From: Spirochaetales bacterium
Lineage (GTDB): Bacteria > Spirochaetota > Spirochaetia > SZUA-6 > RPPD01
NCBI GenBank assembly: GCA_016929065.1
Contig: JAFGJO010000042.1
Span: 16,543 to 80,542 of the forward strand
Direction of reading: 5' to 3'
DNA length: 64,000 bases
Shown here: piece after piece, positions 23,187 through 55,171 of the stretch
Position numbering within the stretch: position 1 is the stretch's first letter
Layout: each line of letters starts with the position of its first letter
Position numbers and translations under genes: made by a program
Notes under the pieces: generated by a model
What the model was told of the DNA's origin: nothing
Databases searched by the model: none
Seen by the model: only the letters and a program-made list of their open reading frames with translations

Positions 23187-23711
23187 CTATTCCGCCTCCC
23201 TGACAATCTCAACCTTCACCCCTTCTGTTGAGGAATAATTCTCTTTTGGGGGAACAACCACCTTCAGGATTCCATCCTTGAATTTCGCATCAACTTTTTC
23301 GCGGTCGAATTTTTTTTCCGGCACATAGTATTTGTGATTTTTTATCTCTTTGAGTTTGAGTCTGTGCTTGAAATACTTCACGCCGCCCTCTTCTGTCCGG
23401 ACAGATGGCTCGGCAGAAATCACCATGTAATCCCCCTGAAATTCCAGAGAAATGCTTTTCTCGTTGAATCCGGCAAAAGCAAATTCAAAAACAAGCTTCC
23501 TGTCTTCTGTCAAAAAAATATTTGCCGGCGGGTAATGGTACAGGGGATAAAAATCTATATTTTCATCCCAGTCAAACCCCCAGTTCCGGGGTCCGTTTTT
23601 CGGAGAGAATCCATCCTTGAATTCCTCCCTGAATGCATCTTTAAAATTTTGTGCAGTTTCGAAGACTTCATCGAAAATGCGGCCAAGATCAAACCAACCC
23701 TGTTCTTTCAT
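23187..23711 (-). CDS. Hsp20/alpha-crystallin family small heat-shock protein
   Basis: It has the alpha-crystallin-domain layout, including the G-x-L-x-V-x-V-P motif (GILKVVVP). Confidence 0.85.
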   Translation of the reverse strand: MKEQGWFDLGRIFDEVFETAQNFKDAFREEFKDGFSPKNGPRNWGFDWDENIDFYPLYHYPPANIFLTEDRKLVFEFAFAGFNEKSISLEFQGDYMVISAEPSVRTEEGGVKYFKHRLKLKEIKNHKYYVPEKKFDREKVDAKFKDGILKVVVPPKENYSSTEGVKVEIVREAE

Positions 23712-24788: not shown

Positions 24789-25346
24789 TCAATAATAGCC
24801 GTATGGACTGTAGTAATACCCGTACGGATCATAGTCATCATAATACCCGTATGGATCATAGTCATCATAATAGCCATACGGATCATAATAGTCATAATAA
24901 TATCCGTAGGGATCATAATAATCATAATAACTGTACGGATCATAATAATCATAGGGATAATAATCAATATTGAGCGGAAAGGACGGCTCCTGTTCTTCTG
25001 CAATAGGCCAGAAGTATTCTTTTCCTTCCCTGAATTCTCCGTTTTTTCTGATTTGAAATGTTTTCCCCTCATGTTTGTACAGAGCAACCAGAGTATGCTT
25101 GCCGGAAGGAATTTGCACCATCACCGCCTCATGCGGTTTTATTCTGGATGATTCAGTGAGGTTATTACTCCAACGCTCCCCTCCGTCGGAATAATAATAC
25201 ACCCCGATCAAATCAAGTGATGTCTCATTCGAGACAGAAACAGAAATTAATCCTGAAGCCGGGCTGTTGTTTTTTTCTGCGACAATCACTGTAGTAAGAA
25301 AAAGCAGCATTCCGCATAACAGTAGCAGACGACGAAATGTTTTCAT
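24789..25346 (-). CDS. Secreted protein with a C-terminal Tyr/Asp/Pro-rich tandem repeat tail
   Basis: It has a signal peptide, then a C-terminal tail of about five 9-10 aa units of the form DPYGYYDDY. Confidence 0.6.
   Translation of the reverse strand: MKTFRRLLLLCGMLLFLTTVIVAEKNNSPASGLISVSVSNETSLDLIGVYYYSDGGERWSNNLTESSRIKPHEAVMVQIPSGKHTLVALYKHEGKTFQIRKNGEFREGKEYFWPIAEEQEPSFPLNIDYYPYDYYDPYSYYDYYDPYGYYYDYYDPYGYYDDYDPYGYYDDYDPYGYYYSPYGYY
24796..24960. repeat. Tandem 27-30 nt coding repeats (the YD-rich tail)
   Basis: Near-identical units such as ataatacccgtatggatcatagtcatc recur head to tail. The overlapping minus-frame ORF at 24743-25087 is an artefact of this repeat. Confidence 0.7.
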
Positions 25347-25772
25347 AAAGGCCTCCCCATTGATGTATTTATTATAGTATAGACAAACCGGAATTTCAAA
25401 AATAAATTAAAAAATTACCGGAATTTATCCCTTCAGGAAGCTGGCGGTCCCGGGATACTGTTGACTGAGCACAGTACACCATTAAAACAACTACTATGAC
25501 TACTATAAAAACCGGTTTTCTGAATTCAATTGCTGTCCTGTGTATTCTTCATTTCATTTCGATGGGGTTTCAACGGCGTAATATAATCTTTTTCATTCGC
25601 TGTTCTACAAAAATTTGTACAATTCGGGTTAACCTTTTTGCATGAGTGTTGTTTTCAAGAAACGACGCCGGTAATCTGTCGAAAAATTGAGGGTATAATG
25701 GGTAGACCGCGTCTTTACAGAGCAATAGATTCTCATTATAATCGCCCCTTACAACCCCGAGGAGGACTGTAC

Positions 25773-26918: not shown

Positions 26919-27491
26919 TTGAAGGGAAAAAATATTGTATTGTTCGGCCCCCCGGGTGCCGGCAAAGGAACCCAGGCGGCAAAACTCATCGGTTTTTTAC
27001 AGGTACCACACATCTCAACCGGCGATATGTTTCGCCACAACCTGAAAAACCAGACCGAATTGGGAAAAAAAGCACAGGAATACATGAGCAGGGGCGCCCT
27101 TGTTCCTGACGAAATAACCATTGCGATGGTCGCCGACCGGCTGTCCCAGCCCGATGTCAAAGAGGGATTTTTACTCGACGGATTTCCCCGAAGCACGCCC
27201 CAAGCGGCGGAACTGGACAATATTTTGTCCAGCCTGTCCATTCAACTCGATTATGTAATAAACATCGCTGTTTCGGATGAAGAAGTCCGTGCCAGACTCT
27301 CAAAACGGGCAGAAATCGAAGGCCGTGCCGATGACCGTGATCCTGCCGTGATTCAAAACAGAATCGACACCTACAAAAGCCAGAGCGAACCGTGCCTTGA
27401 GTACTATCGCCCCAAAAATATTCTCGTTGATATTAACGGTACAGGCACTATTGAAGAGATTTTCGAAAGAATTAAAAAAGCATTACAATAA
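26919..27491 (+). CDS. adk: Adenylate kinase (short form, TTG start)
   Basis: It has the GPPGAGKGTQA P-loop and NMP-binding motifs. Confidence 0.95.
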   Translation: MKGKNIVLFGPPGAGKGTQAAKLIGFLQVPHISTGDMFRHNLKNQTELGKKAQEYMSRGALVPDEITIAMVADRLSQPDVKEGFLLDGFPRSTPQAAELDNILSSLSIQLDYVINIAVSDEEVRARLSKRAEIEGRADDRDPAVIQNRIDTYKSQSEPCLEYYRPKNILVDINGTGTIEEIFERIKKALQ

Positions 27492-27497
27492 ACTGAA

Positions 27498-27547
27498 AAC
27501 GAAAGCCTTCTTGACACAGGAAGGCTTTCGTTATATAAATTTTTTCC
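27498..27547 (+). terminator. Rho-independent terminator of adk
   Basis: A 13 bp stem (aacgaaagccttc / gaaggctttcgtt) is followed by a U-rich tract. Confidence 0.7.
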
Positions 27548-27665
27548 TATTCCAAAGGATATTTTCAGAAACGCAGATTTTTGCTGCAAGGACGCTGAAA
27601 AATCCTGAGGAAGATATGACACGAAGTTTCGATATTACAAGGCTTCTGCCTTTTAAATAGTAAAT

Positions 27666-27714
27666 GGAGTTTTATTATTCTCCTTAAAAACTTTTTCGAG
27701 AATAATAAAACTCC
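27666..27714. repeat. Perfect 17 bp inverted repeat with a 15 nt loop (ggagttttattattctc ... gagaataataaaactcc)
   Basis: I read this directly from the sequence. It lies 60 nt upstream of the tRNA gene. Confidence 0.8.
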
Positions 27715-27773
27715 AAGGTTTGTCGGTAATGTACCTTTCTTGTCGGGAAGATCGTACATTATTGACAAACACC

Positions 27774-27847
27774 GGGCCTATAGCTCAGTTGGTTAGAGCA
27801 ACGGACTCATAATCCGTGGGTCCCAGGTTCAAGTCCTGGTGGGCCCA
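27774..27847 (+). tRNA. tRNA with a CAU anticodon (elongator Met, or lysidine-modified tRNA-Ile2). CCA is not encoded
   Basis: It folds as a cloverleaf with acceptor GGGCCTA/TGGGCCC, D-arm AGCTCAGTTGGTTAGAGC, anticodon loop CTCATAA and T-arm GGTTCAAGTCC. Confidence 0.85.
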
Positions 27848-27882
27848 TTCTTTCCACTGTGCATCCTGCACAGTGGAAAGAA
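27848..27882 (+). terminator. Perfect 16 bp palindrome hairpin immediately 3' of the tRNA (putative terminator/processing structure, no U-tract)
   Basis: The arms are ttctttccactgtgca and tgcacagtggaaagaa, separated by a tcc loop. Confidence 0.5.
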
Positions 27883-27897
27883 TGCAGAAATCGAGAA
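27858..27897. repeat. 40 bp direct repeat, copy 1 (tgtgcatcctgcacagtggaaagaatgcagaaatcgagaa)
   Basis: It is 39/40 identical to copy 2 at 28174-28213. Confidence 0.85.
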
Positions 27898-28081
27898 TTG
27901 CAATTCCAGACTCTTTGCAAAATTAACAGCATTTTATTTCAACTATTCGTATTTCTGCACGAGATTTCTGTGGCTGGCCATCCATGGCCAGAAACTATCA
28001 ATCCATTTCCTGGAATTCAATCAAAATAATACTGTTTCATTCTAAATCTCTTGGTTTCTCCACAATTACTATACCGTTCCG

Positions 28082-28122
28082 TGGAGTTTTGTACTAAAAC
28101 CCTGTTTTGGTACAAAACTCCA
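28082..28122. repeat. Perfect 13 bp inverted repeat with a 15 nt loop (tggagttttgtac ... gtacaaaactcca)
   Basis: It shares the ggagtttt/aaaactcc arm ends and the 15 nt loop size with the IR at 27666-27714. Confidence 0.8.
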
Positions 28123-28173
28123 AATTTACTCCATGCGAAGCAAGGAGTAAAACGAACATCCTGTTCAGAGAAA

Positions 28174-28213
28174 TGTGCATCCTGCACAGTGGAAAGGATG
28201 CAGAAATCGAGAA
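28174..28213. repeat. 40 bp direct repeat, copy 2
   Basis: It matches copy 1 with a single a/g difference. The spurious ORFs in this tract share the translation CILHSGK(N/D)AEIEN. Confidence 0.85.
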
Positions 28214-28331
28214 CTTGGTTTGCCCTCCTTTTACCACTTTTGTAAAAAAGCTGACTCTTTTTGTTTTCCTGCCATTTCCACAAAGAACAACATATTGTAT
28301 AAAGAGTGAACATGAATTCTATGGAGGAACA

Positions 28332-28778
28332 ATGCGAAATATCACTTGTATTAAACTTTTAACATTCCTGGCAGTTGCGTTTTTCATATCATCGGGGTGT
28401 ACAAGCGTGAACAATGCAAGGCATTCAATTGATCAGAAAGAAGCGGAAGCAATTACCAAAGCATGTTTTGATTATGTTGAAGGTTTTTTTGAGGGGAGCG
28501 TGGAACGTGTATCCAATGGATGCCATCAGGAACTTCAAAAACGCCGGATTCGTGATAATGCACTCTATACAACTACCCGCGAAAAACTTCTTGAAGGTGT
28601 GGCAAAAAACAAAAAGAAACCCGATAATCTTGAAATAACCGTTGATATCTATGATGTCTACGGTACCATTGCATCTGCTGTAATCTACTCTTTTTATGTC
28701 GATTATGTTCAGCTTGCGAAGATAGAAGGTCGCTGGCAGGTTGTCAATGTTTTGTGGGACTATAAAAGCATCAAGTAG
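28332..28778 (+). CDS. Small lipoprotein, hypothetical
   Basis: A GGAGG RBS precedes it and the signal peptide ends in an SSGC lipobox. The ORF-track start at 28107 lies inside the repeat tract and I reject it. Confidence 0.65.
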   Translation: MRNITCIKLLTFLAVAFFISSGCTSVNNARHSIDQKEAEAITKACFDYVEGFFEGSVERVSNGCHQELQKRRIRDNALYTTTREKLLEGVAKNKKKPDNLEITVDIYDVYGTIASAVIYSFYVDYVQLAKIEGRWQVVNVLWDYKSIK

Positions 28779-28832: not shown

Positions 28833-28859
28833 AAGAGCTGCCTTTTTTCGGCAGCTCTT
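28833..28859. terminator. Bidirectional terminator between the lipoprotein gene (+) and hsp20 (-)
   Basis: A perfect 10 bp stem (aagagctgcc / ggcagctctt) with a T-rich loop and T-rich flanks. Confidence 0.65.
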
Positions 28860-28882: not shown

Positions 28883-29314
28883 TTATTCACTCTTTACCTG
28901 TATTGTTTTCGGTTGGGCTTCGGGAGACTTCGCAATAGTCAGTGTCAAAACCCCGTTTTTAAAAGAAGCATTAATCTTTTCGCGGTCAACATCTTCCGGG
29001 AGCACAAAACTCCGGGTAAATGAATACCCCTTTCTCTCACGGATAAGGTATCCGTTTTTTTCCGCCTCTTTTTCCTCATTCTTTTCCGATGAAATGGAAA
29101 GAAGATTGTTTTCAATCTTGACAGCAATATCCTTGTCGGTCAAACCGGGAAGATCTGCTTCCAGTATATACTGTTCTTTTTCTTCCCGAACATCAACCCG
29201 GGGATGTGACCCGTTTGTGTTCCACAATTTGTTGTCAAAGACCTCATCAAAAAAACGGTCCAGGTCAGTTCCGAAAATACTCTTCGAAACAGGATTGTAT
29301 TTTACCAGATTCAT
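28883..29314 (-). CDS. Hsp20/alpha-crystallin family small heat-shock protein (second copy)
   Basis: It has an alpha-crystallin domain (SFKNGVLTLTI). Confidence 0.9.
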   Translation of the reverse strand: MNLVKYNPVSKSIFGTDLDRFFDEVFDNKLWNTNGSHPRVDVREEKEQYILEADLPGLTDKDIAVKIENNLLSISSEKNEEKEAEKNGYLIRERKGYSFTRSFVLPEDVDREKINASFKNGVLTLTIAKSPEAQPKTIQVKSE

Positions 29315-30972: not shown

Positions 30973-31001
30973 TTGACAATAGTGTCTCAATGTACTAAAT
31001 T
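30973..31001 (+). promoter_or_regulatory. Putative sigma70-type promoter (TTGACA-N17-TAAATT) for the GntR operon
   Basis: A consensus -35 hexamer is present, and a gtacta...tagtac palindrome downstream may be the operator. Confidence 0.3.
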
Positions 31002-45303: not shown

Positions 45304-45451
45304 TCAGCTTTAATACACACTTCCCTGCCTCTTCTCCTGTATATAAAACACCTCAAATCCAAAAAAGCTACACTGAATTTTGGCCTCTGCTTGCCTTAAC
45401 TGATGTTTACCATTATTATTGAAACATCATTTTCAAAACCAGGAAAACTCT

Positions 45452-48331
45452 ATGAACAAAATCATTATACAAGGCGCCCGTGAGCACAACCTTAAAAATA
45501 TCGACATTACTCTGCCGAGAGACAAATTTATTGTGATCTCGGGACTTTCCGGTTCCGGGAAATCATCTCTCGCATTCGATACAATTTTCGCAGAAGGCCA
45601 GCGGAGGTATGTCGAATCGCTTTCCGCGTATGCACGGCAATTTCTGGGCAGGCTCGACAAGCCCGATGTCGACTATATCGAGGGGCTTTCCCCTGCCATT
45701 TCGATTGAGCAAAAAACCACCCATAAAAATCCCCGTTCGACGGTTGGAACGGTCACCGAGATTTATGATTACCTCCGGTTATTATTCGCACGGATCGGTA
45801 CGCCCCATTGCCCCACGTGCGGCAAGGAAATCAAAGAGCAGTCAATCGACCAGATCATCGATACCATTCTGGCGTATCCACAGAACAGTAAAATAATCAT
45901 CTGCGCCCCAATCGTCCGGGGCAGAAAGGGCGAGCACCAGAAGATTTTCGAGGATGCAAAAAAAGGCGGATTCGCACGGGTGCGGGTAAACGGGGAAATT
46001 CGATCGCTCGAAGAACAAATACCCCTGGAAAAAAACAAAAAGCACTCAATCGAAATTGTTGTCGACCGTCTCACCGTACATGGCGAAAACCGTCAACGGC
46101 TCGCGGAATCGGTTGAAACCGCATTGGAACTCGCCGGCGGCAAGCTGACTGTCATCACCATTGACGGAACAAAAGAGACCGAGGAGTTTTTCTCGCAGCT
46201 TTTTTCCTGTTCAGAATGCGGAGTGAGCATCCCTGAACTTCAGCCGAGGCTTTTTTCGTTCAATAACCCCTACGGTGCCTGCGAGACCTGCTCCGGGCTG
46301 GGAGTTACCCTGGAGTTCGATCCCGGCCTGGTCATTCCCGATCCCTCGCTTTCATTTAATGAGGGAGGGATTGCGCCGTATAATCCCGAAGCAGCCTGGT
46401 ATAAAAGCCGGGTGGGTTCGCTGGCAAAGCATTACGGATTCACCCTTGATACCCCGTTTGATCAGCTGCCGAAACAGGTTCTGAAAAACATTCTGCACGG
46501 CACCAAAGATGCAATTGATTTTACCTATACCAACCGCGACAAACGGGGGAAGTGGGAATATACCTCATCGTTTATCGGGATCCTCCCCGATTTAAAACGC
46601 CGGTATTTCGAGTCTACCTCGGAGGGAGTCAAGGAATGGCTGGAGCAATACATGCGTCAGGCCGAATGTCCGGCGTGTTCCGGCAAGCGCCTGCGGCCCG
46701 AAAGCCTGGGTGTCACAGTATCCAATAAAAACATCTGGGATGTGACGGTGCAGTCAGTGGGTGACGCAGCTCGTTTTTTCGATACACTCAAACTGAGCGA
46801 AACCCAGGCCAAAATTGCCTCTCAAATTCTCAAGGAAATTAAAGCGCGGCTCACTTTCATGATCAACGTGGGGCTCGATTACCTCACCCTTGAACGAAAA
46901 GCGGCAACACTCTCCGGGGGCGAGGCGCAGCGGATCCGGCTTGCAACGCAGATCGGTTCACAGCTGGTCGGAGTGCTGTATATTCTGGATGAGCCGACAA
47001 TCGGGCTGCATCAGAGGGACAACCAGCGGCTCATTGACACGCTCAAACACTTGAGAGATATCGGGAACACACTCATTGTTGTGGAACATGATGAACAGAC
47101 ACTCCGCACGGCGGACTATATTGTGGACCTGGGACCCGGCGCCGGCGTGCATGGCGGGCATGTAGTCGCCGCCGGCACCTATAATGAAATACTTGCGAAC
47201 AAGAAATCGGTCACTGGCCAGTATTTGTCCGGCGCGATTGCCATTGAACAGCGGCCGCAGCGGCGCCCGGTTGATGACAATAAAAAAATCATGCTCCTCG
47301 GCGCAAAGGAACATAATCTTAAAAATATCGATGTCGGGTTTCCACTTGGTGTGTTCACGGTGATTACCGGGGTGTCGGGATCGGGGAAGTCGACCCTGCT
47401 CTCGGACCTGTTGTACCCGGCGCTTTCAAACAAAATCATGCGCTCCCATCACCGCGAGGGCAGTTACGGGAAAATTACCGGGACAAAACATGTCGACAAG
47501 GTGATCAATATCGACCAGAGCCCCATCGGAAGAACCCCGCGCTCAAACCCCGCGACCTACGTGGGGCTGTTCACGCCCATTCGTGAACTGTTTGCAAAAC
47601 TGCCGGAATCACGGGCGCGCGGCTACAAGGCCGGCCGATTCTCGTTTAATGTACGCGGCGGACGGTGCGAACACTGTGAAGGCGACGGTACACTCCGCAT
47701 CGAAATGCACTTTTTATCGGATGTGCATATTACCTGCGACAATTGCAAAGGCAAACGCTATAACCGTGAAACACTTGAAATCCGGTACAAAGGAAAGAAC
47801 ATTCACGATGTGCTGGAAATGACCGTCGAGGAAGCGCATGGCTTTTTTGATAAAATACCAATGATCGAACGCAAACTCCGGGTGCTCCGCGATGTTGGAC
47901 TGGATTATGTCAAACTCGGCCAGTCAGCGCTCACCTTATCGGGCGGGGAAGCACAAAGGGTAAAACTGGCTCTTGAACTGTCCAAGAGGAGCACCGGCCA
48001 GACGCTCTACATACTGGACGAGCCGACTACCGGGCTTCATTTTGCCGACGTTAAAAAACTGATTGAGGTACTGCAGCTCCTGGTAAACCAGGGGAACACC
48101 ATTATCCTTATCGAACACAACCTGGACGTGATCATGCAGGCAGACTATATCATTGACCTGGGGCCGGAAGGCGGCGACCGCGGCGGGCAGGTTATCTGTG
48201 CCGGCACTCCCGAGCAGGTGATGGAATGTAAAGACTCATACACCGGGCATTATCTGAAAGAGGCTTTGGCACAGAACGGGAATAAAAAACCGGCTACGAA
48301 AAAAGCAAAGAAAATGCAAAAGAGAAAATAG
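45452..48331 (+). CDS. uvrA: Excinuclease ABC subunit A
   Basis: It has two ABC ATPase modules with zinc-finger insertions ([15 protein letters not shown] ... LSGGEAQRI). Confidence 0.95.
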
Positions 48332-48410
48332 ATACATTTTTATATAAACCCTACCCGCTCTTTGTCAATGGTGATACCCTATAATTGATGCGAAATTCAC
48401 AAAAATGTGG

Positions 48411-48439
48411 TTGATACAGGTCAGGGTATGTTTTACAAT
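48411..48439 (+). promoter_or_regulatory. Putative sigma70-type promoter (TTGATA-N17-TACAAT) for the island operon
   Basis: It lies ~95 nt upstream of the ATPase gene ATG. Confidence 0.3.
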
Positions 48440-48533
48440 TGTCATGGCATAATGTAAAGTATAAAACCTTCTATATATAACATTTTCCAGGCTGGAAATA
48501 GTCGGTAAGAATATATCGTTGCAAGGGGTTATT

Positions 48534-51500
48534 ATGAATACAGTCTTACAAGCCCTTCATGATTCCTGTGTTCCGCGAAAGAGCGTCTTTGACAAATCCC
48601 GTAAGGACGTAGTCCTTCACCTGGGAGACCTCCTAACAGGAAAACTCAAGGAAAAAGATGCGGAGCTTTTCTTTGATGAGAACTTTGTCACCAAGGGCAT
48701 GAAGTCGTTGATTGAGAAGACTTTCCAGCGCCTTTGCGGGAAGAAAGACCAGGCTGCGACGTTTCTGCTCTCACAGGCCATGGGCGGCGGCAAGACACAC
48801 TCAATGCTCGCCCTGGGATTGCTTGCAAAATATCCGGCTGCGAGGGCGAAATTATGGAAAGAATCAAAGCTCGACGACATGGCGATCCGGGTGATCGGCT
48901 TTGACGGCAGGGAATCAGACTACCCATTCGGGATCTGGGGCTCTATTGCCGAGCAGTTGGGAAAAAAGGATCTGTTCAAGAACCTCTACACTCCCCTTCA
49001 GGCGCCCGGGATCACCTCATGGATCAATCTCCTTCAAGGCGAGCCGACGGTGATCCTGCTCGATGAGCTTCCGCCATACTTTATGAGCGCCATGTCCAAA
49101 TCCGTGGGCGACAGCAACCTGGCCGCGGTGACAACGACCGCAATTTCCAACCTGATGGTCGCAGCCAACAAAACGGAACTTAATAACATCGTTATTGTCA
49201 TTTCAGACCTGTCGGCAACTGCATATTCCAACCTGGGCACCGGGGTCATGGCGGCCCTGGATAACCTGGAAAAAGAAACAAACCGGAGCGCTCTTGTCAT
49301 TGAACCGGTGGCGACACAGGGCGACGAGGTTTTTCACATTCTGAAGACACGGCTTTTTGAAAAATTGCCGGAAGAAAAGATAAAAACCGATGTTGCGGCC
49401 GCGTACGCGGACGCGGTGAAGAAGGCAAAACAGATGGAGCTCACCGCTGCGACGCCGGAAAGTTTTGCAGCCGAGATTAAAGATTCATATCCCTTTCATT
49501 TTTCCCTGCGCGATTTATACGGCCGCTTCAAGGAAAATCCCAATTTTCAGCAGACGCGCGGGCTTTTGCGCATGATGCGCTCGATTATTGCCAATATATG
49601 GGAAAGCGGCAAGGCAAAAAAACTGTATCTAGTACATCCGTATGACATCGATTTGAATGACGGCGACATTTTTACGGAGTTCGACCGCATCAATTCAAGT
49701 CTCTCGGAAGGAGTACGCACCGACATCGCGAACAGCGGCCATTCGCACGCCGAGGAGCGCGACGCGGAATTGAAGACCACAGACGCAACGGACGCGGCAA
49801 AACTCATCTATGTGTCCTCGCTTTCCACAGCACAGAAGGCGGTTATCGGCCTGCGGGATACGGAGATTATTGCCTGGTTGTGCGCGCCCGGCCGCAGTAT
49901 GGAGCGGGTGTTGAGCGACGTGCTTGAGGTCCTGCCAAATCGGGCATGGTATCTGCATCTGTCGCTTGACGGAAGGTTGTACTTTAAAAACATCCAGAAC
50001 CTGGCGGCCAGGCTTTTCGGGATGGTGAGCACTTCCACCAAGGAAAACAAGATCCAGGAATTGCGCAAATACCTGCAATCCCTTTTTGAGCCCAAAATGA
50101 AGGATTTGTATCAGGATATCAAGGTGCTATCGCCGATAGACGACATCACCATCACGCAAGAGAAAACCACGCTCATTGTTACTGACCCTTGGCCTGACGC
50201 GAAATCCGACCAGCCGCTTAATCCGGAGTGGGTCAAGTTCCACAACGATCAGACCTGTCAGAACCGGATGTTTTTTTTGACCGGCGACCGCAACACCATG
50301 GACGAGGTGCTCAAGAACGCCGCGTACCTCAAGGCCGTGGAGGTCGTACTTGCAGAGCAGGAGCAGGAGGGCGTGTCGCCCAAGGACCCGCAGGCGAGCG
50401 AGGCCCGGCGGAGCAAGGATAAATACCAGGTACAGCTGCGCAGCGCGGTCCAGCAGACCTTTTCCACTATCGTATACCCTGCGCGCGGAAAACTGCGGCA
50501 TGAACACATCAATTTTAATTTTGACAACAACCAGTATGACGCGGAGGCACAGATCAGGCGCACACTGGCTGACAACCAGAAGTTCTCGCTGGATGCTGCC
50601 AATGAGACCTGGATCAAAAAGGCGGAGGAACGCCTGTTCGACAACCAGAATCCGGTGCCCTGGAACGAGGTGAAAAAACGCGCGGCGGTGAAGCCGGAAT
50701 GGCAATTCCACCACCCGGGCCTTTTGGAGGACATCCGGGAATACGCAATAAAAACCGGGCGCTGGCGGGCGGAAGGCAACATGGTGCGCCGGGGGCCGTT
50801 TGAAAAGGAACCGACCGGCGTGAAGGTCGCGCTGAAAAGTTTTGATTCTGATACCGGCGATGCGATTCTGCAGATAATCCCTGAAAACGGCAACAAAGTG
50901 TATTACGAAATCGGCGATGCAAAGCCGACCACATCGTCACTGATCGTTACTGATTTTTCAAGTTTTCGCACCAAAGAGCTCAAGTTAACCTTTCTCTGCG
51001 TGGACGAGGGACCGGACCCGCGGCCAACGGGGAATCCTTACGTATGGAAAAATACAATTCAAATCAAATACCGGATTTACTCCCAAGGCAAGGAATATTA
51101 TGCACAGGTTGTCGCAAATCCGCCGGTACCGCTCCGCTATACTACGGAAGGCCGTGATCCGCTGGAACACGGCGTACCCTATGCCGGGGACATTCTCCTG
51201 CCGCCGGAGTGCACCATGCTTCAGGTTGTGGGCGAAAAAGACGGGGTGATGAGCAGAGTAGAGACGTTCAGGATAGACCGCAAGCCTGGCGGGGAAATAG
51301 ATCCGGACAAGCCCGCGGTCTGGTACTGCGGCAGGCATTTCCAGCACAAGCCGGGGGCGGAGGCGTTTCAGCTCCTGGACCGCGCAAAGGAACTTCGGGC
51401 AAACCTTTCATACGTGCTCGTCAATTCGGTCTCTTCGGATACGGAAGAGGCGCTCATGTACACACTACCCAAAAATCATCTGCGATCTGCTGAGGAAGTT

Positions 51501-51653
51501 GGCAATATTTGCAACAATCTGCAGGAGATGATCCCGGACGCGCATCTGACATTGAGCATCCATGAGATACACTTCACGCGAGGCCAGGACCTGCTGGACT
51601 GGATGCAAAAGGACCGGCTTTCCATTGACGTTGCCAAAGAGGTGAAACAGTGA
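48534..51653 (+). CDS. Large P-loop ATPase of the DUF499/BrxC-PglY-like type (phage-defence associated)
   Basis: It has a Walker A motif (MGGGKTHS) near residue 90 and a DE(L) Walker B motif (ILLDELPPYF), and is ~1040 aa. It is GC-rich relative to the flanks. Confidence 0.65.
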   Translation: MNTVLQALHDSCVPRKSVFDKSRKDVVLHLGDLLTGKLKEKDAELFFDENFVTKGMKSLIEKTFQRLCGKKDQAATFLLSQAMGGGKTHSMLALGLLAKYPAARAKLWKESKLDDMAIRVIGFDGRESDYPFGIWGSIAEQLGKKDLFKNLYTPLQAPGITSWINLLQGEPTVILLDELPPYFMSAMSKSVGDSNLAAVTTTAISNLMVAANKTELNNIVIVISDLSATAYSNLGTGVMAALDNLEKETNRSALVIEPVATQGDEVFHILKTRLFEKLPEEKIKTDVAAAYADAVKKAKQMELTAATPESFAAEIKDSYPFHFSLRDLYGRFKENPNFQQTRGLLRMMRSIIANIWESGKAKKLYLVHPYDIDLNDGDIFTEFDRINSSLSEGVRTDIANSGHSHAEERDAELKTTDATDAAKLIYVSSLSTAQKAVIGLRDTEIIAWLCAPGRSMERVLSDVLEVLPNRAWYLHLSLDGRLYFKNIQNLAARLFGMVSTSTKENKIQELRKYLQSLFEPKMKDLYQDIKVLSPIDDITITQEKTTLIVTDPWPDAKSDQPLNPEWVKFHNDQTCQNRMFFLTGDRNTMDEVLKNAAYLKAVEVVLAEQEQEGVSPKDPQASEARRSKDKYQVQLRSAVQQTFSTIVYPARGKLRHEHINFNFDNNQYDAEAQIRRTLADNQKFSLDAANETWIKKAEERLFDNQNPVPWNEVKKRAAVKPEWQFHHPGLLEDIREYAIKTGRWRAEGNMVRRGPFEKEPTGVKVALKSFDSDTGDAILQIIPENGNKVYYEIGDAKPTTSSLIVTDFSSFRTKELKLTFLCVDEGPDPRPTGNPYVWKNTIQIKYRIYSQGKEYYAQVVANPPVPLRYTTEGRDPLEHGVPYAGDILLPPECTMLQVVGEKDGVMSRVETFRIDRKPGGEIDPDKPAVWYCGRHFQHKPGAEAFQLLDRAKELRANLSYVLVNSVSSDTEEALMYTLPKNHLRSAEEVGNICNNLQEMIPDAHLTLSIHEIHFTRGQDLLDWMQKDRLSIDVAKEVKQ

Positions 51654-52219
51654 GCGAAGTGCTGGGATTCGGCTTTTTCCCGGAGCGCACAACGCACTGC
51701 TTTGTCGTGCACCTGCCGAATACGGCAAAGGGAGAAATCGCCATTACAGAAGAGTTTAAGTGGGCGCTTGAACAGGAATCGTTTGAAAAACATGGTCTGC
51801 AAAATCCCGACCTGAAAGTACTTCTTTCCATGGAACTCTGGAAAGAGATCGCGGACGAGGCCAAGGCCGAGTTTAACCGCAGGCTCATCCGGCATGGCGT
51901 AAAGTCCGGCAAGTGGCCGGCGAAAGGCAAGGTGCCGGTTGACCGCAACCTTGGAAAGGAACTGGTACTCCTGGCCTGGGCCGTGGAGGACGCGGACCCC
52001 GTGCTCATCCCCAATGCGGTACGCAACTGGTTGGGCTTGAGCCCGGAGGAGCGCTGGTGGCTTTTCACCATGACCAACGCGGCCACGGGCCAGGCTTTGG
52101 GCGGCCGCAACAAGGGCTGGCGTAAAGCCGTACGCTTTGCGCTCACGGAAAACCCCATCGCCGATTCAGTCATAAAAAAACGCGTGAGCGATTTTGAATT
52201 GCCGCTTTTTCGGGAGTAA
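51650..52219 (+). CDS. Small conserved protein, translationally coupled (GTGA overlap) between the ATPase and the MTase
   Basis: It is 189 aa with no catalytic motif I can see. Confidence 0.5.
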   Translation: MSEVLGFGFFPERTTHCFVVHLPNTAKGEIAITEEFKWALEQESFEKHGLQNPDLKVLLSMELWKEIADEAKAEFNRRLIRHGVKSGKWPAKGKVPVDRNLGKELVLLAWAVEDADPVLIPNAVRNWLGLSPEERWWLFTMTNAATGQALGGRNKGWRKAVRFALTENPIADSVIKKRVSDFELPLFRE

Positions 52220-52224
52220 TAACT

Positions 52225-55101
52225 TTGCCGCATAAACCACTCATTGAAACACAATTCCCCCTGGCGATCTTGAGCGCCGAAAGCTACAAGGAGCGCAAGG
52301 CCAATTTGGGACAGACGCTCACAGGTCTTGGAAAATGGTGGGGCAGAAAGCCGCTCATACTAGTACGCGCGGTCATCCTGGGTCTTCTCATGCCCGCATC
52401 CGACAATCCGGAAAAGGACCGCGAGGTATTCCTGCGCGTGCTCACCATGGACGAGGACGGTCTGTGGAAACGCAAGAGCAAAAAAATGAGCGCGGCCCAA
52501 GTTGCCGGACAATTGAGCCCGCAGGAGAGCACAGGAATTATTGAAATAAACGGCGACAAGCCCGCCTGGAAACGCGGTCTGGACGCAACGGACAAACTGC
52601 GGCTTGAGAAACTCGCCTTTAACCGCCTGGATTATGAGGAAAAGCTTACGCTTTGCGACCGGCCGGAGCAGATTGACGGGCCCAGTGAAGAAAGCTGGCA
52701 GGAAATAAACCGGCATTTGGGTACTTGCGCCGCAACCCTGCAGGAACTCTTCGCCGAGCTTTCCCGGAAAGCATTTGGCCGACTCGCGCGAGTTGGTGAT
52801 GTGTTTTGCGGGGGCGGCTCCATTCCGTTTGAAGCCGCCCGGCTGGGGCTTGAAGCCTACGGAAGCGACTTGAATCCCGTGGCCGCGCTGTTAACCTGGG
52901 CCGCAATCAATTTGATCGGCGGTGGGAAAGAGGTACAGGAGCAGGTGCGCAGTGCGCAGAAGGAAGCTTGGGAAGCGGCGGACAAACAAATCACGGAATG
53001 GGGGATCGAACACGACAGTGCGGGGAATCGTTCAGACGCCTATCTCTATTGCATAGAAGTAAAAAGTCCGGCCACTGGTCTGTGGGTGCCTTTGGCGCCT
53101 AGTTGGGTAATTGGAGAGAGAAGCAAAGTCATCGCGGTTTTGAAAAAAAATGAAAAGCGGCACGGATATGATATCAATATTGTAACCGGGGCAACAGACA
53201 AGCAGATGAAGGAAGCCAAAACCGGTACGGTGCAGGACGGTGAACTGGTCTGCCCGGAAACAGGCAAGCGCTACAGCATTGCCAGCCTGCGCGGGGATCG
53301 CCGGGATGAAGGGGAATCCGTTTACGGCCTGCGGCTTTGGGAAAACGAGGACCTTGTCCCGCGGCCTGAAGACACATTTCAGGAACGGCTTTACTGTGTG
53401 CGCTGGGTCACTCCGGAAGGAGAGCGGCTCTATAAAAGTGTGACGCAGGAGGATGAGGCGCGGGAACAAAAGGTGCTTGCGCTTTTGAAAGAACGGTTTT
53501 CCGAATGGCAGGAGAAGGGGTATATTCCGTCAAAACCAATTACACGCGGTGGCGACAAAACAGAAGAACCGATCCGGACACGCGGCTGGACGCACTGGCA
53601 CCATTTGTTTAATCCAAGGCAATTGTTGGTACATGGGTTGATATCAAGTATTAATACTTCAAGAGATAAAATAAATAGGGTATTCCTTCTGTTGTGGATT
53701 GGTAGCCTATCAAATCGTGATTCAAGAATTGTTGGCTGGGTTCCTTCATATGGAGTTGAGACTACTGATCAAGTATTTACAAACCAGGCATTAAATACAA
53801 AATTTAACTGGGCGGCAAGAGGTTTACTAGGATATAAAACAGTCACTAATATTAGGGCCAATTATAATGTAAACATTAACTCCAGTAAAATTGAACCACA
53901 AGATGCTCGAGTAGCTCAAAGTGATAATCACTTATGGATAACAGACCCACCATATGCTGATGCTATAAATTATCATGAGATTCTCGATTTTTTCCTCGCC
54001 TGGTATGAAAAACACCTACCCAAGTTATTTCCTGACTGGTATACGGACAGCCGTCCGGCTTTGGCAGTCAAGGGTACAGATGAGGATTTTAAGCACAGTA
54101 TGGTTGGAATTTACGCCAATCTCGCGGCTCACATGCCTGACGACGGCCTGCAGGTTGTTATGTTCACCCACCAAGATGCGGGCGTCTGGGCGGACCTGGG
54201 CATGATCCTCTGGGCCGCTGGACTTAAAGTGACTACTGCTTGGACGGTTGTTACAGAAACAGTATCTGCATCTGATTCCGGCAACTTTGTCCAAGGCACT
54301 GTACTTATGGTTTTACGCAAGCGCTTGGAAAGTAAAACCGTGTTTCTGGACGAGCTCTACCCGCTTGTGGACGACGAGGTGAAAAAACAGCTTGACCACA
54401 TGCACCGTGTGGACGACCAAATTCGCTCCCAGTTCGGAGACACGGACTTCCAGCTCGGCGCCTATGCCGCTGCCCTCCGTGTGCTCACAAGCTACGCGGA
54501 TATCGAAGGCCAGGATATCAAGCATGAGCTTTTCCGCACACGGACCAAGAATGAAAAATCCCCCTTTGAAAATATTATTGACCGCGCTGTCTCCATCGCC
54601 GCCGGCTACCTTATTCCGCGCGGTATTAGCCAGCAGGTTTGGCGCAATCTTGACAACATGGAGCGGCTGTATCTGCGTGGCCTGGAACTGGAACGCCATG
54701 GCGAATTGCGGCAAGGCGCTTACCAGGAACTCGCGCGCGGGTTCGGCGTGCAGGAATACACCTTTATGCTTGCAGACAAGGTAGCCAACCAGGCGAGATT
54801 CAAGACGGCAATCGAGTTCAAGCGGACGCAAATGGGCGAGGGCGACTGGGGCGGCACCCTGTTGCGCCATGTTTTATTCGCCATTCATGAGGCCGTGCGT
54901 GCGGAAAACCCGCGTGAGGGTTTTAATTACCTCAAGAACGCGCGGACGGACTATTGGGCCAGGCGAGAGGACATTCAGGAAATATTCAAGTATTTGGAGC
55001 AGGCAGCCACGCATAGTCACCTTGCGCATTGGAAACAGGACAGCGCGGCGGCGCAATTGGTACGCGGACTCGTCGCGAACGATTATGGCGGGAGCGGGTA
55101 A
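52225..55101 (+). CDS. N6-adenine DNA methyltransferase, 958 aa, DUF1156-like architecture
   Basis: It has an N-terminal KWWGRKP-type region, an AdoMet motif I (VFCGGGSIPFEA...DLNPVA) and the catalytic motif IV DPPY at about residue 570. Confidence 0.75.
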   Translation: MPHKPLIETQFPLAILSAESYKERKANLGQTLTGLGKWWGRKPLILVRAVILGLLMPASDNPEKDREVFLRVLTMDEDGLWKRKSKKMSAAQVAGQLSPQESTGIIEINGDKPAWKRGLDATDKLRLEKLAFNRLDYEEKLTLCDRPEQIDGPSEESWQEINRHLGTCAATLQELFAELSRKAFGRLARVGDVFCGGGSIPFEAARLGLEAYGSDLNPVAALLTWAAINLIGGGKEVQEQVRSAQKEAWEAADKQITEWGIEHDSAGNRSDAYLYCIEVKSPATGLWVPLAPSWVIGERSKVIAVLKKNEKRHGYDINIVTGATDKQMKEAKTGTVQDGELVCPETGKRYSIASLRGDRRDEGESVYGLRLWENEDLVPRPEDTFQERLYCVRWVTPEGERLYKSVTQEDEAREQKVLALLKERFSEWQEKGYIPSKPITRGGDKTEEPIRTRGWTHWHHLFNPRQLLVHGLISSINTSRDKINRVFLLLWIGSLSNRDSRIVGWVPSYGVETTDQVFTNQALNTKFNWAARGLLGYKTVTNIRANYNVNINSSKIEPQDARVAQSDNHLWITDPPYADAINYHEILDFFLAWYEKHLPKLFPDWYTDSRPALAVKGTDEDFKHSMVGIYANLAAHMPDDGLQVVMFTHQDAGVWADLGMILWAAGLKVTTAWTVVTETVSASDSGNFVQGTVLMVLRKRLESKTVFLDELYPLVDDEVKKQLDHMHRVDDQIRSQFGDTDFQLGAYAAALRVLTSYADIEGQDIKHELFRTRTKNEKSPFENIIDRAVSIAAGYLIPRGISQQVWRNLDNMERLYLRGLELERHGELRQGAYQELARGFGVQEYTFMLADKVANQARFKTAIEFKRTQMGEGDWGGTLLRHVLFAIHEAVRAENPREGFNYLKNARTDYWARREDIQEIFKYLEQAATHSHLAHWKQDSAAAQLVRGLVANDYGGSG

Positions 55102-55115
55102 AAGCCGAGCTTTGA

Positions 55116-55171
55116 CCAAAATCAAATTATTGGCAATAATTGCCTAAAATTGCCGATAATTTGATTTTAGG
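55116..55171. promoter_or_regulatory. 22 bp inverted repeat (2 mismatches) spanning the abiEi start codon; putative AbiEi autoregulatory operator
   Basis: The arms are ccaaaatcaaattattggcaat and attgccgataatttgattttagg, separated by an 11 nt spacer that contains the ATG. Confidence 0.5.

What the first reader, a model, noticed from the sequence alone, without database searches (positions are those of the whole stretch)
27660..28320. Hairpin-dense ~650 bp noncoding tract around tRNA-Met(CAU), with a 40 bp direct repeat (39/40 identical) and two related 13-17 bp perfect inverted repeats with 15 nt loops
Long perfect palindromes bracket the tRNA: a 17 bp IR upstream and a 16 bp perfect palindrome that begins at the first base after the discriminator. 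Downstream, a 40 bp segment (tgtgcatcctgcacagtggaaag[a/g]atgcagaaatcgagaa) recurs 316 bp later. Between the copies lie a 13 bp perfect IR whose arms (ggagttttgtac) resemble the upstream IR (ggagttttattattctc), plus further hairpins (tttactcc/ggagtaaa and ctggccat/atggccag). No plausible CDS fits; the candidate ORFs simply translate the repeats. Several explanations are possible. It could be an attL/attR-like scar of a tRNA-targeted integration with the cargo lost. It could be a small structured RNA or several. It could be a family of REP-like hairpin elements, or operator pairs for a dimeric regulator with fixed 15 nt spacing.
Basis: seen in the sequence. Interest (0 to 1): 0.55.

Follow-up and report, generated by a model that had tools for sequence, protein, structure and literature searches.

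The report
Hairpin-module array flanking a tRNA gene
An 840-base gap between two genes holds one tRNA gene packed tightly between unusually long, perfect RNA/DNA hairpins that belong to two small, locally duplicated families; it is real and lineage-specific, but most likely ordinary tRNA-transcript processing/stability structure rather than a mobile-element scar.

Summary
New findings: the hairpins form two families. A and D share only the stem base. C, H, F and G share CTGnnCATCC(A)TGn'n'CAG, with compensatory stem changes. The 40-mer is the youngest copy of the second module, with sharp ends. The repeat lies wholly outside the tRNA. No integrase is nearby, no other copy exists in the window, and public collections give no match. 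The att-scar, REP-family and operator readings are therefore not supported. The organism is a Fibrobacterota/Chitinivibrionia-like MAG that uses sigma-70-type promoters and canonical GC-rich terminators, and these AU-rich 18-23 bp stems are neither. A strong promoter lies 235 nt upstream of the tRNA. Best reading (about 0.42): plus-strand RNA hairpins of a tRNA transcription unit, serving as processing, stability or insulation elements, possibly reading through into the lipoprotein gene. Most novel surviving reading (about 0.12): on the minus strand the four module loops read C[A(N)GGAU]G, the CsrA-binding motif, so the tract could be a CsrB-like decoy RNA. Strand and function remain untested.

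The parts
27498..27532 (+). adk terminator hairpin (16-bp stem, one G.U on +, followed by a T-rich run). Context only; it overlaps the promoter-like site below.
27511..27539 (+). Sigma-70-like promoter TTGACA-17-TATAAA (11 of 12), the best in the tract. Predicted start is near 27546, which would give the tRNA a leader of about 228 nt containing hairpins A and B.
   Evidence: Sites of the same quality sit correctly upstream of other genes in the window (25399-25371, 25714-25742, 30973-31001, 39210-39183, 48411-48439).
27665..27715 (+). Hairpin A: 18-bp perfect AU-rich stem, 15-nt loop, -22.8 kcal/mol. Family 1, with stem base TGGAGTTTT...AAAACTCCAA.
27718..27770 (+). Hairpin B: 17-bp IR with two G.U on +. 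It extends to 23 pairs as + strand RNA (-25.7 against -18.0 kcal/mol on the - strand) and ends 3 nt before the tRNA.
27774..27847 (+). tRNA with anticodon CAU and no encoded CCA. ARAGORN calls it Met, but it is probably tRNA-Ile2 (lysidine type).
27846..27884 (+). Hairpin C: 18-bp perfect stem, loop TCC, flush with the discriminator, -29.2 kcal/mol, no U tract. Its top is the founding copy of family 2.
27858..27897 (+). Direct repeat copy 1: the loop and 3' arm of hairpin C plus 13 nt.
27951..27969 (+). ATTTCTGC-ACGAG-ATTTCTG: two short inverted copies of the repeat's tail GCAGAAAT. They pair with 27884-27895 in the predicted fold.
27974..27991 (+). Hairpin H: CTGGCC ATCCAT GGCCAG. Family 2 member; against C it has 2 compensated pairs and a 1-nt loop insertion.
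28082..28122 (+). Hairpin D: 19-bp stem with one U.G on +, loop CCT. -25.5 kcal/mol on + against -21.1 on -. Family 1.
28125..28151 (+). Hairpin E: 12-bp stem with one A.A mismatch, loop GAA. It carries the ACTCC/GGAGT motif in inverse order.
28153..28167 (+). Hairpin F: GAACA TCC TGTTC. Family 2. It forms a 21-nt tandem unit with G (28150-28170 against 28171-28191, 71% identical, 2 compensated pairs). Its outermost pair is C.A on + and U.G on -.
   Evidence: (D4)
28174..28213 (+). Direct repeat copy 2 (39/40). It contains hairpin G (TGTGCA TCC TGCACA, 28174-28188) but lacks the 5' arm of hairpin C.
28275..28303 (+). Weaker promoter-like site TTTCCA-17-TATAAA (9 of 12) ahead of the lipoprotein gene.
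28332..28778 (+). Downstream gene: 148-aa lipoprotein (signal peptide with SSGC lipobox, PF12893 Lumazine_bd_2). RBS GGAGGA at 28323-28328. The first canonical terminator on the + strand after the tRNA is at 28833-28859.

Best explanation
The tract is the non-coding leader and trailer of a tRNA(CAU) transcription unit on the + strand. It is built from two small families of RNA hairpins that arose by local duplication and have been kept paired by selection.

Transcription probably starts at the sigma-70-type promoter at 27511-27539. The roughly 228-nt leader folds into hairpins A and B, and B ends 3 nt before the RNase P site. The tRNA has no encoded CCA. Hairpin C starts flush with the discriminator.

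Inferred step: an endonucleolytic cut at the discriminator (RNase Z type, as used for CCA-less tRNAs) would release the tRNA. The downstream RNA would then begin with a blunt 5' stem-loop, which is the classic protection against 5'-end-dependent decay.

None of the long AU-rich stems carries the U tract of this genome's real terminators. Some transcription therefore probably runs on through H, D, E, F and G towards the lipoprotein gene. On that path the 18-23-bp perfect helices would serve as double-strand-specific (RNase III-type) processing sites, as stability elements, or as folding insulators.

The 40-bp direct repeat is not an att site. It is the most recent duplication of the hairpin-C module (apex, 3' arm and 13 nt). 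Older copies of the same module are H and F.

Shown: the anatomy, the family relationships, the compensatory changes, the + strand bias of B and D, and the promoter and terminator context. Inferred: transcription, read-through, and which nucleases act.
For: - Extreme, locus-specific structure: z -11.8, and z -12.7 against +1.0 to -3.5 for the other 17 intergenic regions.
- Family 2 (C-top, H, F, G) aligns as CTGnnCATCC(A)TGn'n'CAG. There are 11 invariant columns, two pairs changed on both sides in both F and H, and 95.8% of cells paired against 14-48% when the partners are slid.
- Family 1 (A, D) shares TGGAGTTTT...AAAACTCCAA. The interiors are unrelated yet still perfectly complementary.
- B and D are 7.7 and 4.4 kcal/mol more stable as + strand RNA, because all three transition mismatches are G.U on +.
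- The organism uses -35/-10 promoters at the right places. The best site in the tract is on +, upstream of the tRNA (11 of 12), and nothing reaches 10 of 12 on the - strand inside the tract.
- Canonical GC-rich terminators with U tracts exist in this genome (28833-28859, 24780-24763). Hairpins A-D are not of that type, and the first canonical terminator downstream of the tRNA on + lies after the lipoprotein gene.
- In other bacteria the same tRNA is followed by CCA and a canonical terminator within about 10-25 nt. Hairpin C therefore occupies the terminator or processing position but is built differently.
- The repeat has sharp ends, and neither its flanks nor the tRNA show residual similarity to the interior. 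This fits a small module copy rather than a decayed tandem tRNA unit.
- No coding potential and no Rfam family.
Against: - No expression data: neither the strand nor read-through is demonstrated.
- No related genome is close enough to test conservation. The best relatives have adk at 64-77% aa identity, no synteny, and no tRNA after adk.
- Perfect Watson-Crick stems of 18 bp are more typical of young DNA palindromes than of long-selected RNA helices.
- The + strand loops (AUCCU) have no known function. Their - strand complement matches a well-known protein-binding motif.
- The one non-Watson-Crick position in family 2 (hairpin F) is a wobble on the - strand, not the + strand.
- The predicted promoter lies 235 nt from the tRNA, which is a long leader.
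- Sharp 40-bp repeats next to a tRNA are classically att sites.
Confidence: 0.42

Rival explanations
1. A CsrA/RsmA-titrating decoy RNA on the minus strand. In this reading a transcript running from about 28.2-28.3 kb down to hairpin C, convergent with the tRNA, displays GGA motifs in hairpin loops and sequesters CsrA as CsrB and RsmZ do.
For: - On the - strand the four family-2 apices read C[AGGAU]G three times and C[AUGGAU]G once. This is the CsrB repeat CAGGA(U/A/C)G and the core of the SELEX consensus RUACARGGAUGU, with GGA in a hairpin loop (motif as stated in PMC7652899).
- This is the only cluster of at least 3 such hairpins within 400 nt in 2.45 Mb scanned. The background is 0.045 per kb, and 1.1 are expected per 128 kb of random sequence.
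- The - strand has 15 GGA in 27848-28331 against 8 on +; the fold of 27846-28310 finds 15 (6 unpaired) against 6 (1 unpaired). P is about 0.012 against a Markov model.
- Hairpins G, F and E have U-rich 3' flanks on the - strand.
- Hairpin F's extra pair is a wobble on the - strand.
- Chitinivibrionia are flagellated (PMC4704652), the kind of lineage that usually carries CsrA.
Against: - Only about 2-3 of the four sites are independent, since G is the repeat copy of C and F is a tandem copy of G.
- No - strand promoter reaches 10 of 12 in or just upstream of the tract, and there is no intrinsic terminator with a U tract at its 3' end.
- Hairpins D and B favour the + strand.
- Hairpin C's 18-bp stem is far more stable than typical CsrA ligands, which have at most 4 contiguous pairs (PMC7652899).
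- No Rfam Csr/Rsm hit even at E<=10.
- CsrA was not found in the window or any fetched locus, and its presence in this organism is unknown.
- Such decoys are known only in Gammaproteobacteria (PMC4682653).
Confidence: 0.12
2. A remnant of site-specific integration: attL/attR around a decayed or miniature, integrase-less element (CIME-like) inserted just downstream of the tRNA.
For: - The repeat is 40 bp, 97.5% identical, next to a tRNA, with sharp ends and unrelated sequence on both outer and inner sides.
- The repeat contains a small inverted repeat (TGTGCA-TCC-TGCACA).
- Removing one repeat and the 276-bp interior restores a plausible simple site: tRNA, complete hairpin C, then about 120 nt to the gene.
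Against: - The repeat begins 10 nt after the tRNA and includes none of it. tRNA-targeting integrases duplicate the tRNA's 3' part.
- The interior is only 276 bp, has no ORF or Pfam hit, and has no match in phage, plasmid or viral collections.
- No integrase or mobile gene is called in the neighbourhood.
- The 26-mer core is absent from all three public collections.
- The interior itself holds older diverged copies of the repeat's hairpin (H, and F abutting copy 2). This points to local amplification.
Confidence: 0.1
3. Low-copy selfish or structural DNA palindromes (REP/BIME-like or MITE-like) that have accumulated in a permissive gap.
For: - Two families of 15-50-bp palindromes are clustered in one intergenic region.
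- Family 1 has conserved termini with variable interiors.
- Hairpin D is preceded by GTGG, resembling the GT[A/G]G head of REPs.
- The perfect arms suggest young DNA-level palindromes.
Against: - No other copy of either family in the remaining 63 kb of the window, nor in 202 other loci. Viral-contig hits are at the chance level, mostly with only the 9-bp seed paired.
- No target-site duplications or terminal inverted repeats bound the 316-bp unit.
- All four family-2 copies share one orientation, unlike BIMEs.
- No RAYT or IS200-type gene was seen.
Confidence: 0.13
4. Functionless by-product. In this reading slippage and duplication, plus quasi-palindrome 'correction' by template switching, acted in a relaxed intergenic region. 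Only hairpin C would serve as a terminator or processing signal.
For: - There is no conservation to appeal to.
- The perfect arms are what template-switch correction produces.
- F and G form a simple 21-nt tandem duplication.
- Loop conservation between F and G is not significant by itself at 29% divergence (my estimate, P about 0.09).
Against: - Compensated double changes occur in two families.
- The directional G.U bias of B and D.
- The tract is an extreme outlier relative to every other intergenic region of the same genome.
- The hairpins abut both tRNA ends precisely.
Confidence: 0.15
5. Operator sites for a dimeric DNA-binding regulator, with half-sites TGGAGTTTT / AAAACTCCA.
For: The 9-mer inverted pair occurs twice, with none expected by chance.
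Against: - The half-sites are 33 and 23 nt apart, not a fixed distance.
- The whole interval between them is itself self-complementary, which operators do not need.
- The 'fixed 15 nt spacing' came from ignoring a G.U pair.
- No regulator gene is adjacent; the nearest is a GntR gene about 3 kb away.
Confidence: 0.03

Closest known systems
Structured tRNA leaders/trailers and tRNA-mRNA co-transcripts processed at long hairpins (e.g. E. coli metY-rimP-nusA-infB, where RNase III cuts a hairpin between the tRNA and the first ORF; 3' external transcribed spacers). Cited from my own knowledge.
   Same: - A CAU-anticodon tRNA lies upstream of a protein gene on the same strand.
- Long double-stranded stems sit between them.
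- There is no canonical terminator directly after the tRNA.
   Different: - Here there are eight hairpins in two repeated families, 18-23 perfect AU-rich pairs each.
- One hairpin is flush with the discriminator.
- A 40-bp duplication is present.
- Co-transcription and RNase III cleavage are not shown.
CsrB/CsrC/RsmX/Y/Z decoy RNAs of Gammaproteobacteria
   Same: - Repeated short hairpin modules display CAGGAUG / A(N)GGAX in the loop, closed by C-G.
- Additional unpaired GGA motifs are present.
- The array evolved by module duplication (motif per PMC7652899).
   Different: - The motif is on the strand opposite the tRNA and the flanking genes.
- No promoter or terminator was found for that strand.
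- There are only 4-6 exposed sites in about 450 nt.
- One site sits on an 18-bp stem.
- There is no Rfam similarity.
- The lineage is outside the Gammaproteobacteria, and its CsrA status is unknown.
tRNA-associated genomic-island att sites and integrase-less CIME remnants (own knowledge: Williams 2002; Pavlovic 2004)
   Same: A near-identical, sharply bounded direct repeat of tens of bp lies beside a tRNA gene.
   Different: - The repeat excludes the tRNA.
- The cargo is 276 bp with no gene.
- No integrase is present.
- The interior carries diverged copies of the repeat's own hairpin.
REP/BIME and other small palindromic repeats
   Same: Palindromes of 15-50 bp are clustered in an intergenic region, with stems kept complementary.
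   Different: - They are not dispersed: there is no other copy in 64 kb.
- All copies share one orientation.
- No RAYT gene is present.
rrA/rrB/rrF small RNAs between the dual terminators of E. coli rRNA operons (PMC8144298, abstract seen)
   Same: Short non-coding sequence follows a stable-RNA gene, is bracketed by repeated terminator-like hairpin sequence, and would be made by read-through. Those RNAs bind Hfq and CsrA in vitro.
   Different: - The second 'terminator' here is only half a hairpin.
- There are no U tracts.
- There is no sequence similarity.

Membership tests
tRNA-targeted integrative element (attL/attR) | The direct repeat includes the 3' part of the tRNA gene, so that integration rebuilds the tRNA | tested here: not met
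   The repeat starts at 27858, 10 nt after the tRNA end at 27847. There is no similarity between the tRNA 3' half and the sequence before copy 2.
tRNA-targeted integrative element (attL/attR) | An integrase or recombinase gene, or other cargo, lies between or beside the repeats | tested here: not met
   The 276-bp interior has no ORF with a Pfam hit. The neighbouring genes are adk, a TPR protein, a lipoprotein, Hsp20, PHP and GntR.
tRNA-targeted integrative element (attL/attR) | The same core sequence is found on a phage, ICE or plasmid (attP), or empty and occupied sites are found in relatives | tested here: inconclusive
   0 hits for the 26-mer core in viral, genome and metagenome collections, and no blastn hit in phages or plasmids. 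However, no close relative of this organism is available.
REP/BIME-like dispersed palindromes | Many copies are dispersed through the genome's intergenic regions | tested here: inconclusive
   No further copy in the other 63 kb of the window or in 202 loci. The rest of the source genome is not in any searchable collection.
REP/BIME-like dispersed palindromes | An associated RAYT or IS200-type transposase | not testable with these tools
   None was noticed in the window, but the genome outside the window is unavailable.
MITE | Terminal inverted repeats plus a short target-site duplication bounding the unit | tested here: not met
   The ends of the 316-bp unit are not inverted repeats, and hairpins A and D have no flanking duplications.
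Csr/Rsm decoy sRNA | Multiple GGA motifs exposed in hairpin loops or single strands (A(N)GGAX) | tested here: met
   On the - strand there are 4 apical C[A(N)GGAU]G loops plus 2 further unpaired GGA, out of 15 GGA in total.
Csr/Rsm decoy sRNA | An independent transcription unit with its own promoter and intrinsic terminator on that strand | tested here: not met
   The best - strand promoter-like site is 9 of 12 (28345-28316). No stem plus U-tract terminator lies at the 3' end. These are consensus scans only.
Csr/Rsm decoy sRNA | The organism encodes CsrA/RsmA | not testable with these tools
   tblastn with E. coli and B. subtilis CsrA found nothing in the window or the fetched loci. The genome is unavailable, and the papers checked do not report on Fibrobacterota.
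Csr/Rsm decoy sRNA | Similarity to a curated Csr/Rsm covariance model | tested here: not met
   There was no CsrB, CsrC, RsmX, RsmY or RsmZ hit at E<=10 on either strand.
Canonical intrinsic terminator | A GC-rich stem of about 5-12 bp, a short loop, and a U tract | tested here: not met
   Hairpins A-D are 28-44% GC, 17-19 bp, and lack a T run. True examples in the same genome are at 28833-28859 and 24780-24763.
Integron attC | R''/R' core sites RYYYAAC...GTTRRRY at the stem base, extrahelical bases, and IntI nearby | tested here: not met
   The stem bases read TGGAGTTTT/AAAACTCCA and CATTC/GAATG. The stems are perfect, and no integrase is present.
Any Rfam family other than tRNA | A match at the gathering score | tested here: not met
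   Only RF00005 reached the gathering score in the whole window. The sub-threshold hits are generic hairpin and miRNA models.

The most novel reading that the evidence does not exclude
The minus strand of 28.3-27.85 kb may encode a CsrB-like decoy RNA. It would consist of four duplicated hairpin modules with C[A(N)GGAU]G apices plus further exposed GGA motifs, and would titrate CsrA in a flagellated, presumably FliW-type, non-gammaproteobacterial lineage (Fibrobacterota/Chitinivibrionia). It would share the palindromic hairpin C with the convergent tRNA as a two-way 3' end. This would be the first CsrA-sequestering RNA outside the Gammaproteobacteria. It would also speak to the question, stated as open in the literature, of whether FliW and decoy RNAs ever coexist (PMC7652899, PMC4682653).
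Probability: 0.12. Interest if true: 0.75.

Novelty: new member of a known kind. Interest (0 to 1): 0.36.

Why it matters
If the best reading holds, this is a tidy but lineage-specific example of how a tRNA gene can be packaged. Long helices abut both ends, replace a canonical terminator, and probably define processing and stability of a tRNA-mRNA transcript. The example comes from a barely studied phylum. It is useful for annotation, because it is not an island scar, a REP or a gene, but it is not surprising.

Its value would rise sharply if the minus-strand GGA-loop modules turn out to bind CsrA. No decoy RNA for CsrA is known outside the Gammaproteobacteria.

Independently of function, the locus gives two clean small cases of hairpins that diverged in sequence while staying perfectly paired.

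Tried and rejected
- Dispersed repeat. I searched for the 40-mer (up to 16 mismatches), its halves, the 9/10-mers and CAGAAATC in the window. I searched the 26-mer core in genome, viral and metagenome collections, with 0 hits. I searched the hairpin pattern in 202 loci and in viral contigs, giving 51 hits at about the chance level, nearly all with only the 9-bp seed paired.
- Comparative flank analysis. 80 adk loci were fetched. The 23 Fibrobacterota-like ones share no neighbour gene and have no tRNA after adk. A further 120 metagenome loci carry the same tRNA 3' half, but their flanks are unrelated.
- Decayed tandem tRNA unit. Local alignments of the tRNA, leader and post-repeat flanks against the interior are no better than shuffles. 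There is no second tRNA-like hit at E<=10.
- Coding. The 22 small ORFs were listed and the four longest have no Pfam match. No SD-plus-start pair fits.
- Phage or plasmid origin. blastn in distant mode hits only the tRNA and nothing for the downstream 484 bp.
- Known RNA families. None were found.
- Integron attC, DGR TR/VR, retron, CRISPR, N4-type hairpin promoter, HAIR/CIRCE heat-shock operators. All were considered from sequence and dropped, because the motif, spacing or partner gene is wrong.
- CsrA in the lineage. tblastn and four papers or supplements gave no answer. I did not spend a 5.8-billion-protein search on it, because a top-120 list was unlikely to include this clade.
- Assembly artefact. 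Rejected, because independent Logan contigs are identical.
Full report
**What is there**

The window carries adk (26919-27491, +) and a 148-aa lipoprotein gene whose real start is ATG 28332, behind GGAGGA. The 840-bp gap between them holds a single tRNA with anticodon CAU at 27774-27847.
- The upstream inverted repeat is 18 bp perfect.
- The post-tRNA palindrome is 18 bp if the discriminator and C72 are counted.
- The '13 bp IR with a 15-nt loop' is in fact a 19-bp stem with one G.U and a 3-nt loop. The supposed common 15-nt spacing therefore disappears.

A further hairpin was overlooked. Hairpin B (27718-27770) ends 3 nt before the tRNA.

The 40-mer at 27858-27897 recurs at 28174-28213 with 39/40 identity. 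There is no third copy in the window, even at 16 mismatches.

**Is it more than chance, and is it real?**

The region folds 11-12 standard deviations better than dinucleotide shuffles on either strand. I cut the window into 18 crude intergenic regions. This one scored z -12.7, and all the others fell between +1.0 and -3.5. Four of the seven near-perfect inverted repeats of at least 16 bp in 64 kb lie here, and a fifth is the adk terminator next door. Two contigs from an independent Logan assembly of SRR13394437 match the window base for base across the tract; they break inside the tRNA.

**Organism and comparators**

The adk protein is 99% identical to one labelled 'Spirochaetales bacterium' (a MAG). 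The next relatives, at 64-77%, are Chitinivibrionales, Chitinispirillaceae and Fibrobacterota MAGs. None of 23 such adk loci shares a neighbouring gene or has a tRNA after adk, so no informative comparison of the tract is possible.

The 26-mer core of the repeat has no exact match in the genome, viral or metagenome collections. The non-tRNA part has no blastn match in phages or plasmids. A further 120 metagenome loci carrying the same tRNA 3' half have unrelated flanks. Many of them show CCA followed by a canonical terminator within about 10-25 nt.

**New anatomy: two hairpin families**

Family 1: hairpins A (27665-27715) and D (28082-28122) share only the base of the stem, TGGAGTTTT...AAAACTCCAA. 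None is expected by chance. Their interiors differ in sequence and length but remain fully complementary.

Family 2: the top of hairpin C, hairpin H (27974-27991), hairpin F (28153-28167) and hairpin G (inside repeat copy 2) align as CTGnnCATCC(A)TGn'n'CAG.
- Eleven columns are invariant.
- The two variable pairs are changed on both sides in F and in H (UA to AU or GC; GC to AU or CG).
- 95.8% of cells are paired, against 14-48% when partners are slid.
- F and G are a 21-nt tandem pair (D4).

The 40-mer is thus the youngest copy of a module that has been copied at least three times within 340 bp. Its ends are sharp. Neither its flanks, nor the tRNA, nor the leader show residual similarity to the interior. 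This argues against a decayed tandem tRNA unit.

**Which strand?**

For the + strand:
- Hairpins B and D are 7.7 and 4.4 kcal/mol better as + strand RNA, because all three of their transition mismatches are G.U on +.
- The organism clearly uses -35/-10 promoters. Sites scoring 10-11 of 12 sit just upstream of several genes.
- The best site in the tract is TTGACA-17-TATAAA at 27511-27539 on +, overlapping the adk terminator. Nothing on the - strand inside the tract reaches 10 of 12.
- Hairpin C abuts the tRNA.

For the - strand:
- The family-2 loops read C[AGGAU]G three times and C[AUGGAU]G once.
- GGA is about twice as frequent as on the + strand. Over 27848-28331 the counts are 15 and 8. In the fold of 27846-28310 they are 15 (six unpaired) and 6 (one unpaired).
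- G, F and E have U-rich 3' flanks on that strand.
- Hairpin F's only non-Watson-Crick pair is a wobble on -.

The evidence is mixed, with the weight on +.

**Terminators**

The genome has canonical terminators, namely GC-rich stems of 7-10 bp plus a U tract, at 28833-28859 and 24780-24763. Hairpins A-D are 17-19 bp, 28-44% GC and lack U tracts, so they are not of that kind. On the + strand, the first canonical terminator after the tRNA lies beyond the lipoprotein gene.

**Best explanation (confidence 0.42)**

The tract is the leader and trailer of a + strand tRNA transcription unit made of locally amplified, structure-selected RNA hairpins.

Shown: the anatomy, the family relationships, the compensation, and the promoter and terminator context.

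Inferred:
- Transcription from about 27546.
- RNase P cleavage 3 nt after hairpin B.
- An RNase Z-type cut at the discriminator. The tRNA has no encoded CCA, and a hairpin flush with the discriminator would block exonucleolytic trimming. This cut would leave the downstream RNA with a blunt 5' stem-loop.
- Partial read-through towards the lipoprotein gene.
- The 18-23-bp helices acting as RNase III-type processing sites, stabilisers or folding insulators.

The closest architectural precedent I know is the E. coli metY-nusA-infB operon. This comparison rests on my own knowledge and was not tested here.

**Rivals**

1. CsrA decoy on the - strand (0.12).
   - The motif match is specific. CAGGA(U/A/C)G in hairpin loops is the CsrB repeat (PMC7652899), and no comparable cluster occurs in 2.45 Mb of other sequence.
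   - Against it: only 2-3 sites are independent; the strand lacks promoter and terminator signals; one site sits on an 18-bp stem; there is no Rfam similarity; CsrA could not be shown for this organism; and such decoys are known only in Gammaproteobacteria (PMC4682653).
2. att/CIME remnant (0.10). The sharp 40-bp repeat fits. However, it excludes the tRNA, encloses 276 bp of nothing, has no integrase and no attP anywhere searchable, and its interior carries older copies of its own hairpin.
3. REP/MITE-like palindromes (0.13). There is no dispersal in the sequence that could be searched, and all copies share one orientation. The rest of the genome is unseen.
4. Neutral duplication plus palindrome correction (0.15). 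This is hard to square with the compensated changes, the strand bias and the outlier status.
5. Operators (0.03). The spacing is not fixed.

**Verdict**

It has one low-probability, high-value alternative, a CsrA-binding RNA, which a single strand-specific transcriptome or a gel shift would settle.

Noticed in passing
window 27774-27847: ARAGORN calls the tRNA Met from its CAU anticodon, but it is probably tRNA-Ile2 (lysidine type). Its best full-length E. coli match is annotated tRNA-Ile (79.7%). It has G1-C72 (so it is not an initiator) and C4-G69/C5-G68, which I recall as TilS determinants. Its reverse strand hits the plastid ycf2 5'UTR model (RF04354) at 45.7 bits, below the 65.7 gathering score; I recall that model lying beside plastid trnI-CAU. 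No CCA is encoded.
   Followed up: partly
window 45419-59738: A higher-GC block (about 50-55% against about 44%) holds a defence island. It comprises a UvrA-like ATPase (mad3-like), then DUF499, DUF3780, a DUF1156 methyltransferase and a PLD-SNF2 helicase, with an AbiEi/AbiEii toxin-antitoxin pair inserted between the methyltransferase and the helicase.
   Followed up: partly
window 55118-55168: A 20-bp, 95% inverted repeat with an 11-nt loop overlaps a promoter-like site (TTGACC-17-AATAAT, 55112-55140) directly upstream of the AbiEi antitoxin gene. It may be the AbiEi autoregulatory operator.
   Followed up: no
window 24789-25346 (-): A 185-aa secreted-looking protein has a C-terminal run of Tyr-rich repeats (DPYGYY/DYYDPY), encoded by a 27/57-nt tandem DNA repeat at 24793-24964. 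It has no Pfam family.
   Followed up: no
window 27511-27539 with 27498-27532: The strongest promoter-like site of the region has its -35 hexamer in the loop of the adk terminator hairpin and its spacer in the terminator's 3' arm. Terminator and next promoter therefore share the same 30 bp.
   Followed up: partly
L001 end / L002 start (window 27801 / 27819): Both Logan contigs of SRR13394437 stop inside the tRNA, leaving the 17-nt anticodon arm unassembled. This suggests that the sample contains other sequences sharing the tRNA's halves, from other strains or species. It could hide alternative junctions at this locus.
   Followed up: no
whole window /: The source MAG is labelled 'Spirochaetales bacterium' in NCBI. 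Its adk, however, groups with Chitinivibrionales, Chitinispirillaceae and Fibrobacterota MAGs (64-77% aa), several of which are themselves labelled Spirochaetaceae or Elusimicrobia. The taxonomic label is doubtful.
   Followed up: partly
window 23187-23711 (-) and 28883-29314 (-): Two Hsp20-family genes lie within 6 kb, one on each side of the tract. A canonical bidirectional terminator at 28833-28859 is shared by the lipoprotein gene and the second hsp20.
   Followed up: no
window 28196 (repeat copy 2) vs 27880 (copy 1): The single difference between the two 40-mers (A in copy 1, G in copy 2) creates AAGGAUG on the + strand of copy 2. This is the only predicted unpaired GGA on that strand. 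The change would also still wobble-pair with the 5' arm of hairpin C.
   Followed up: no
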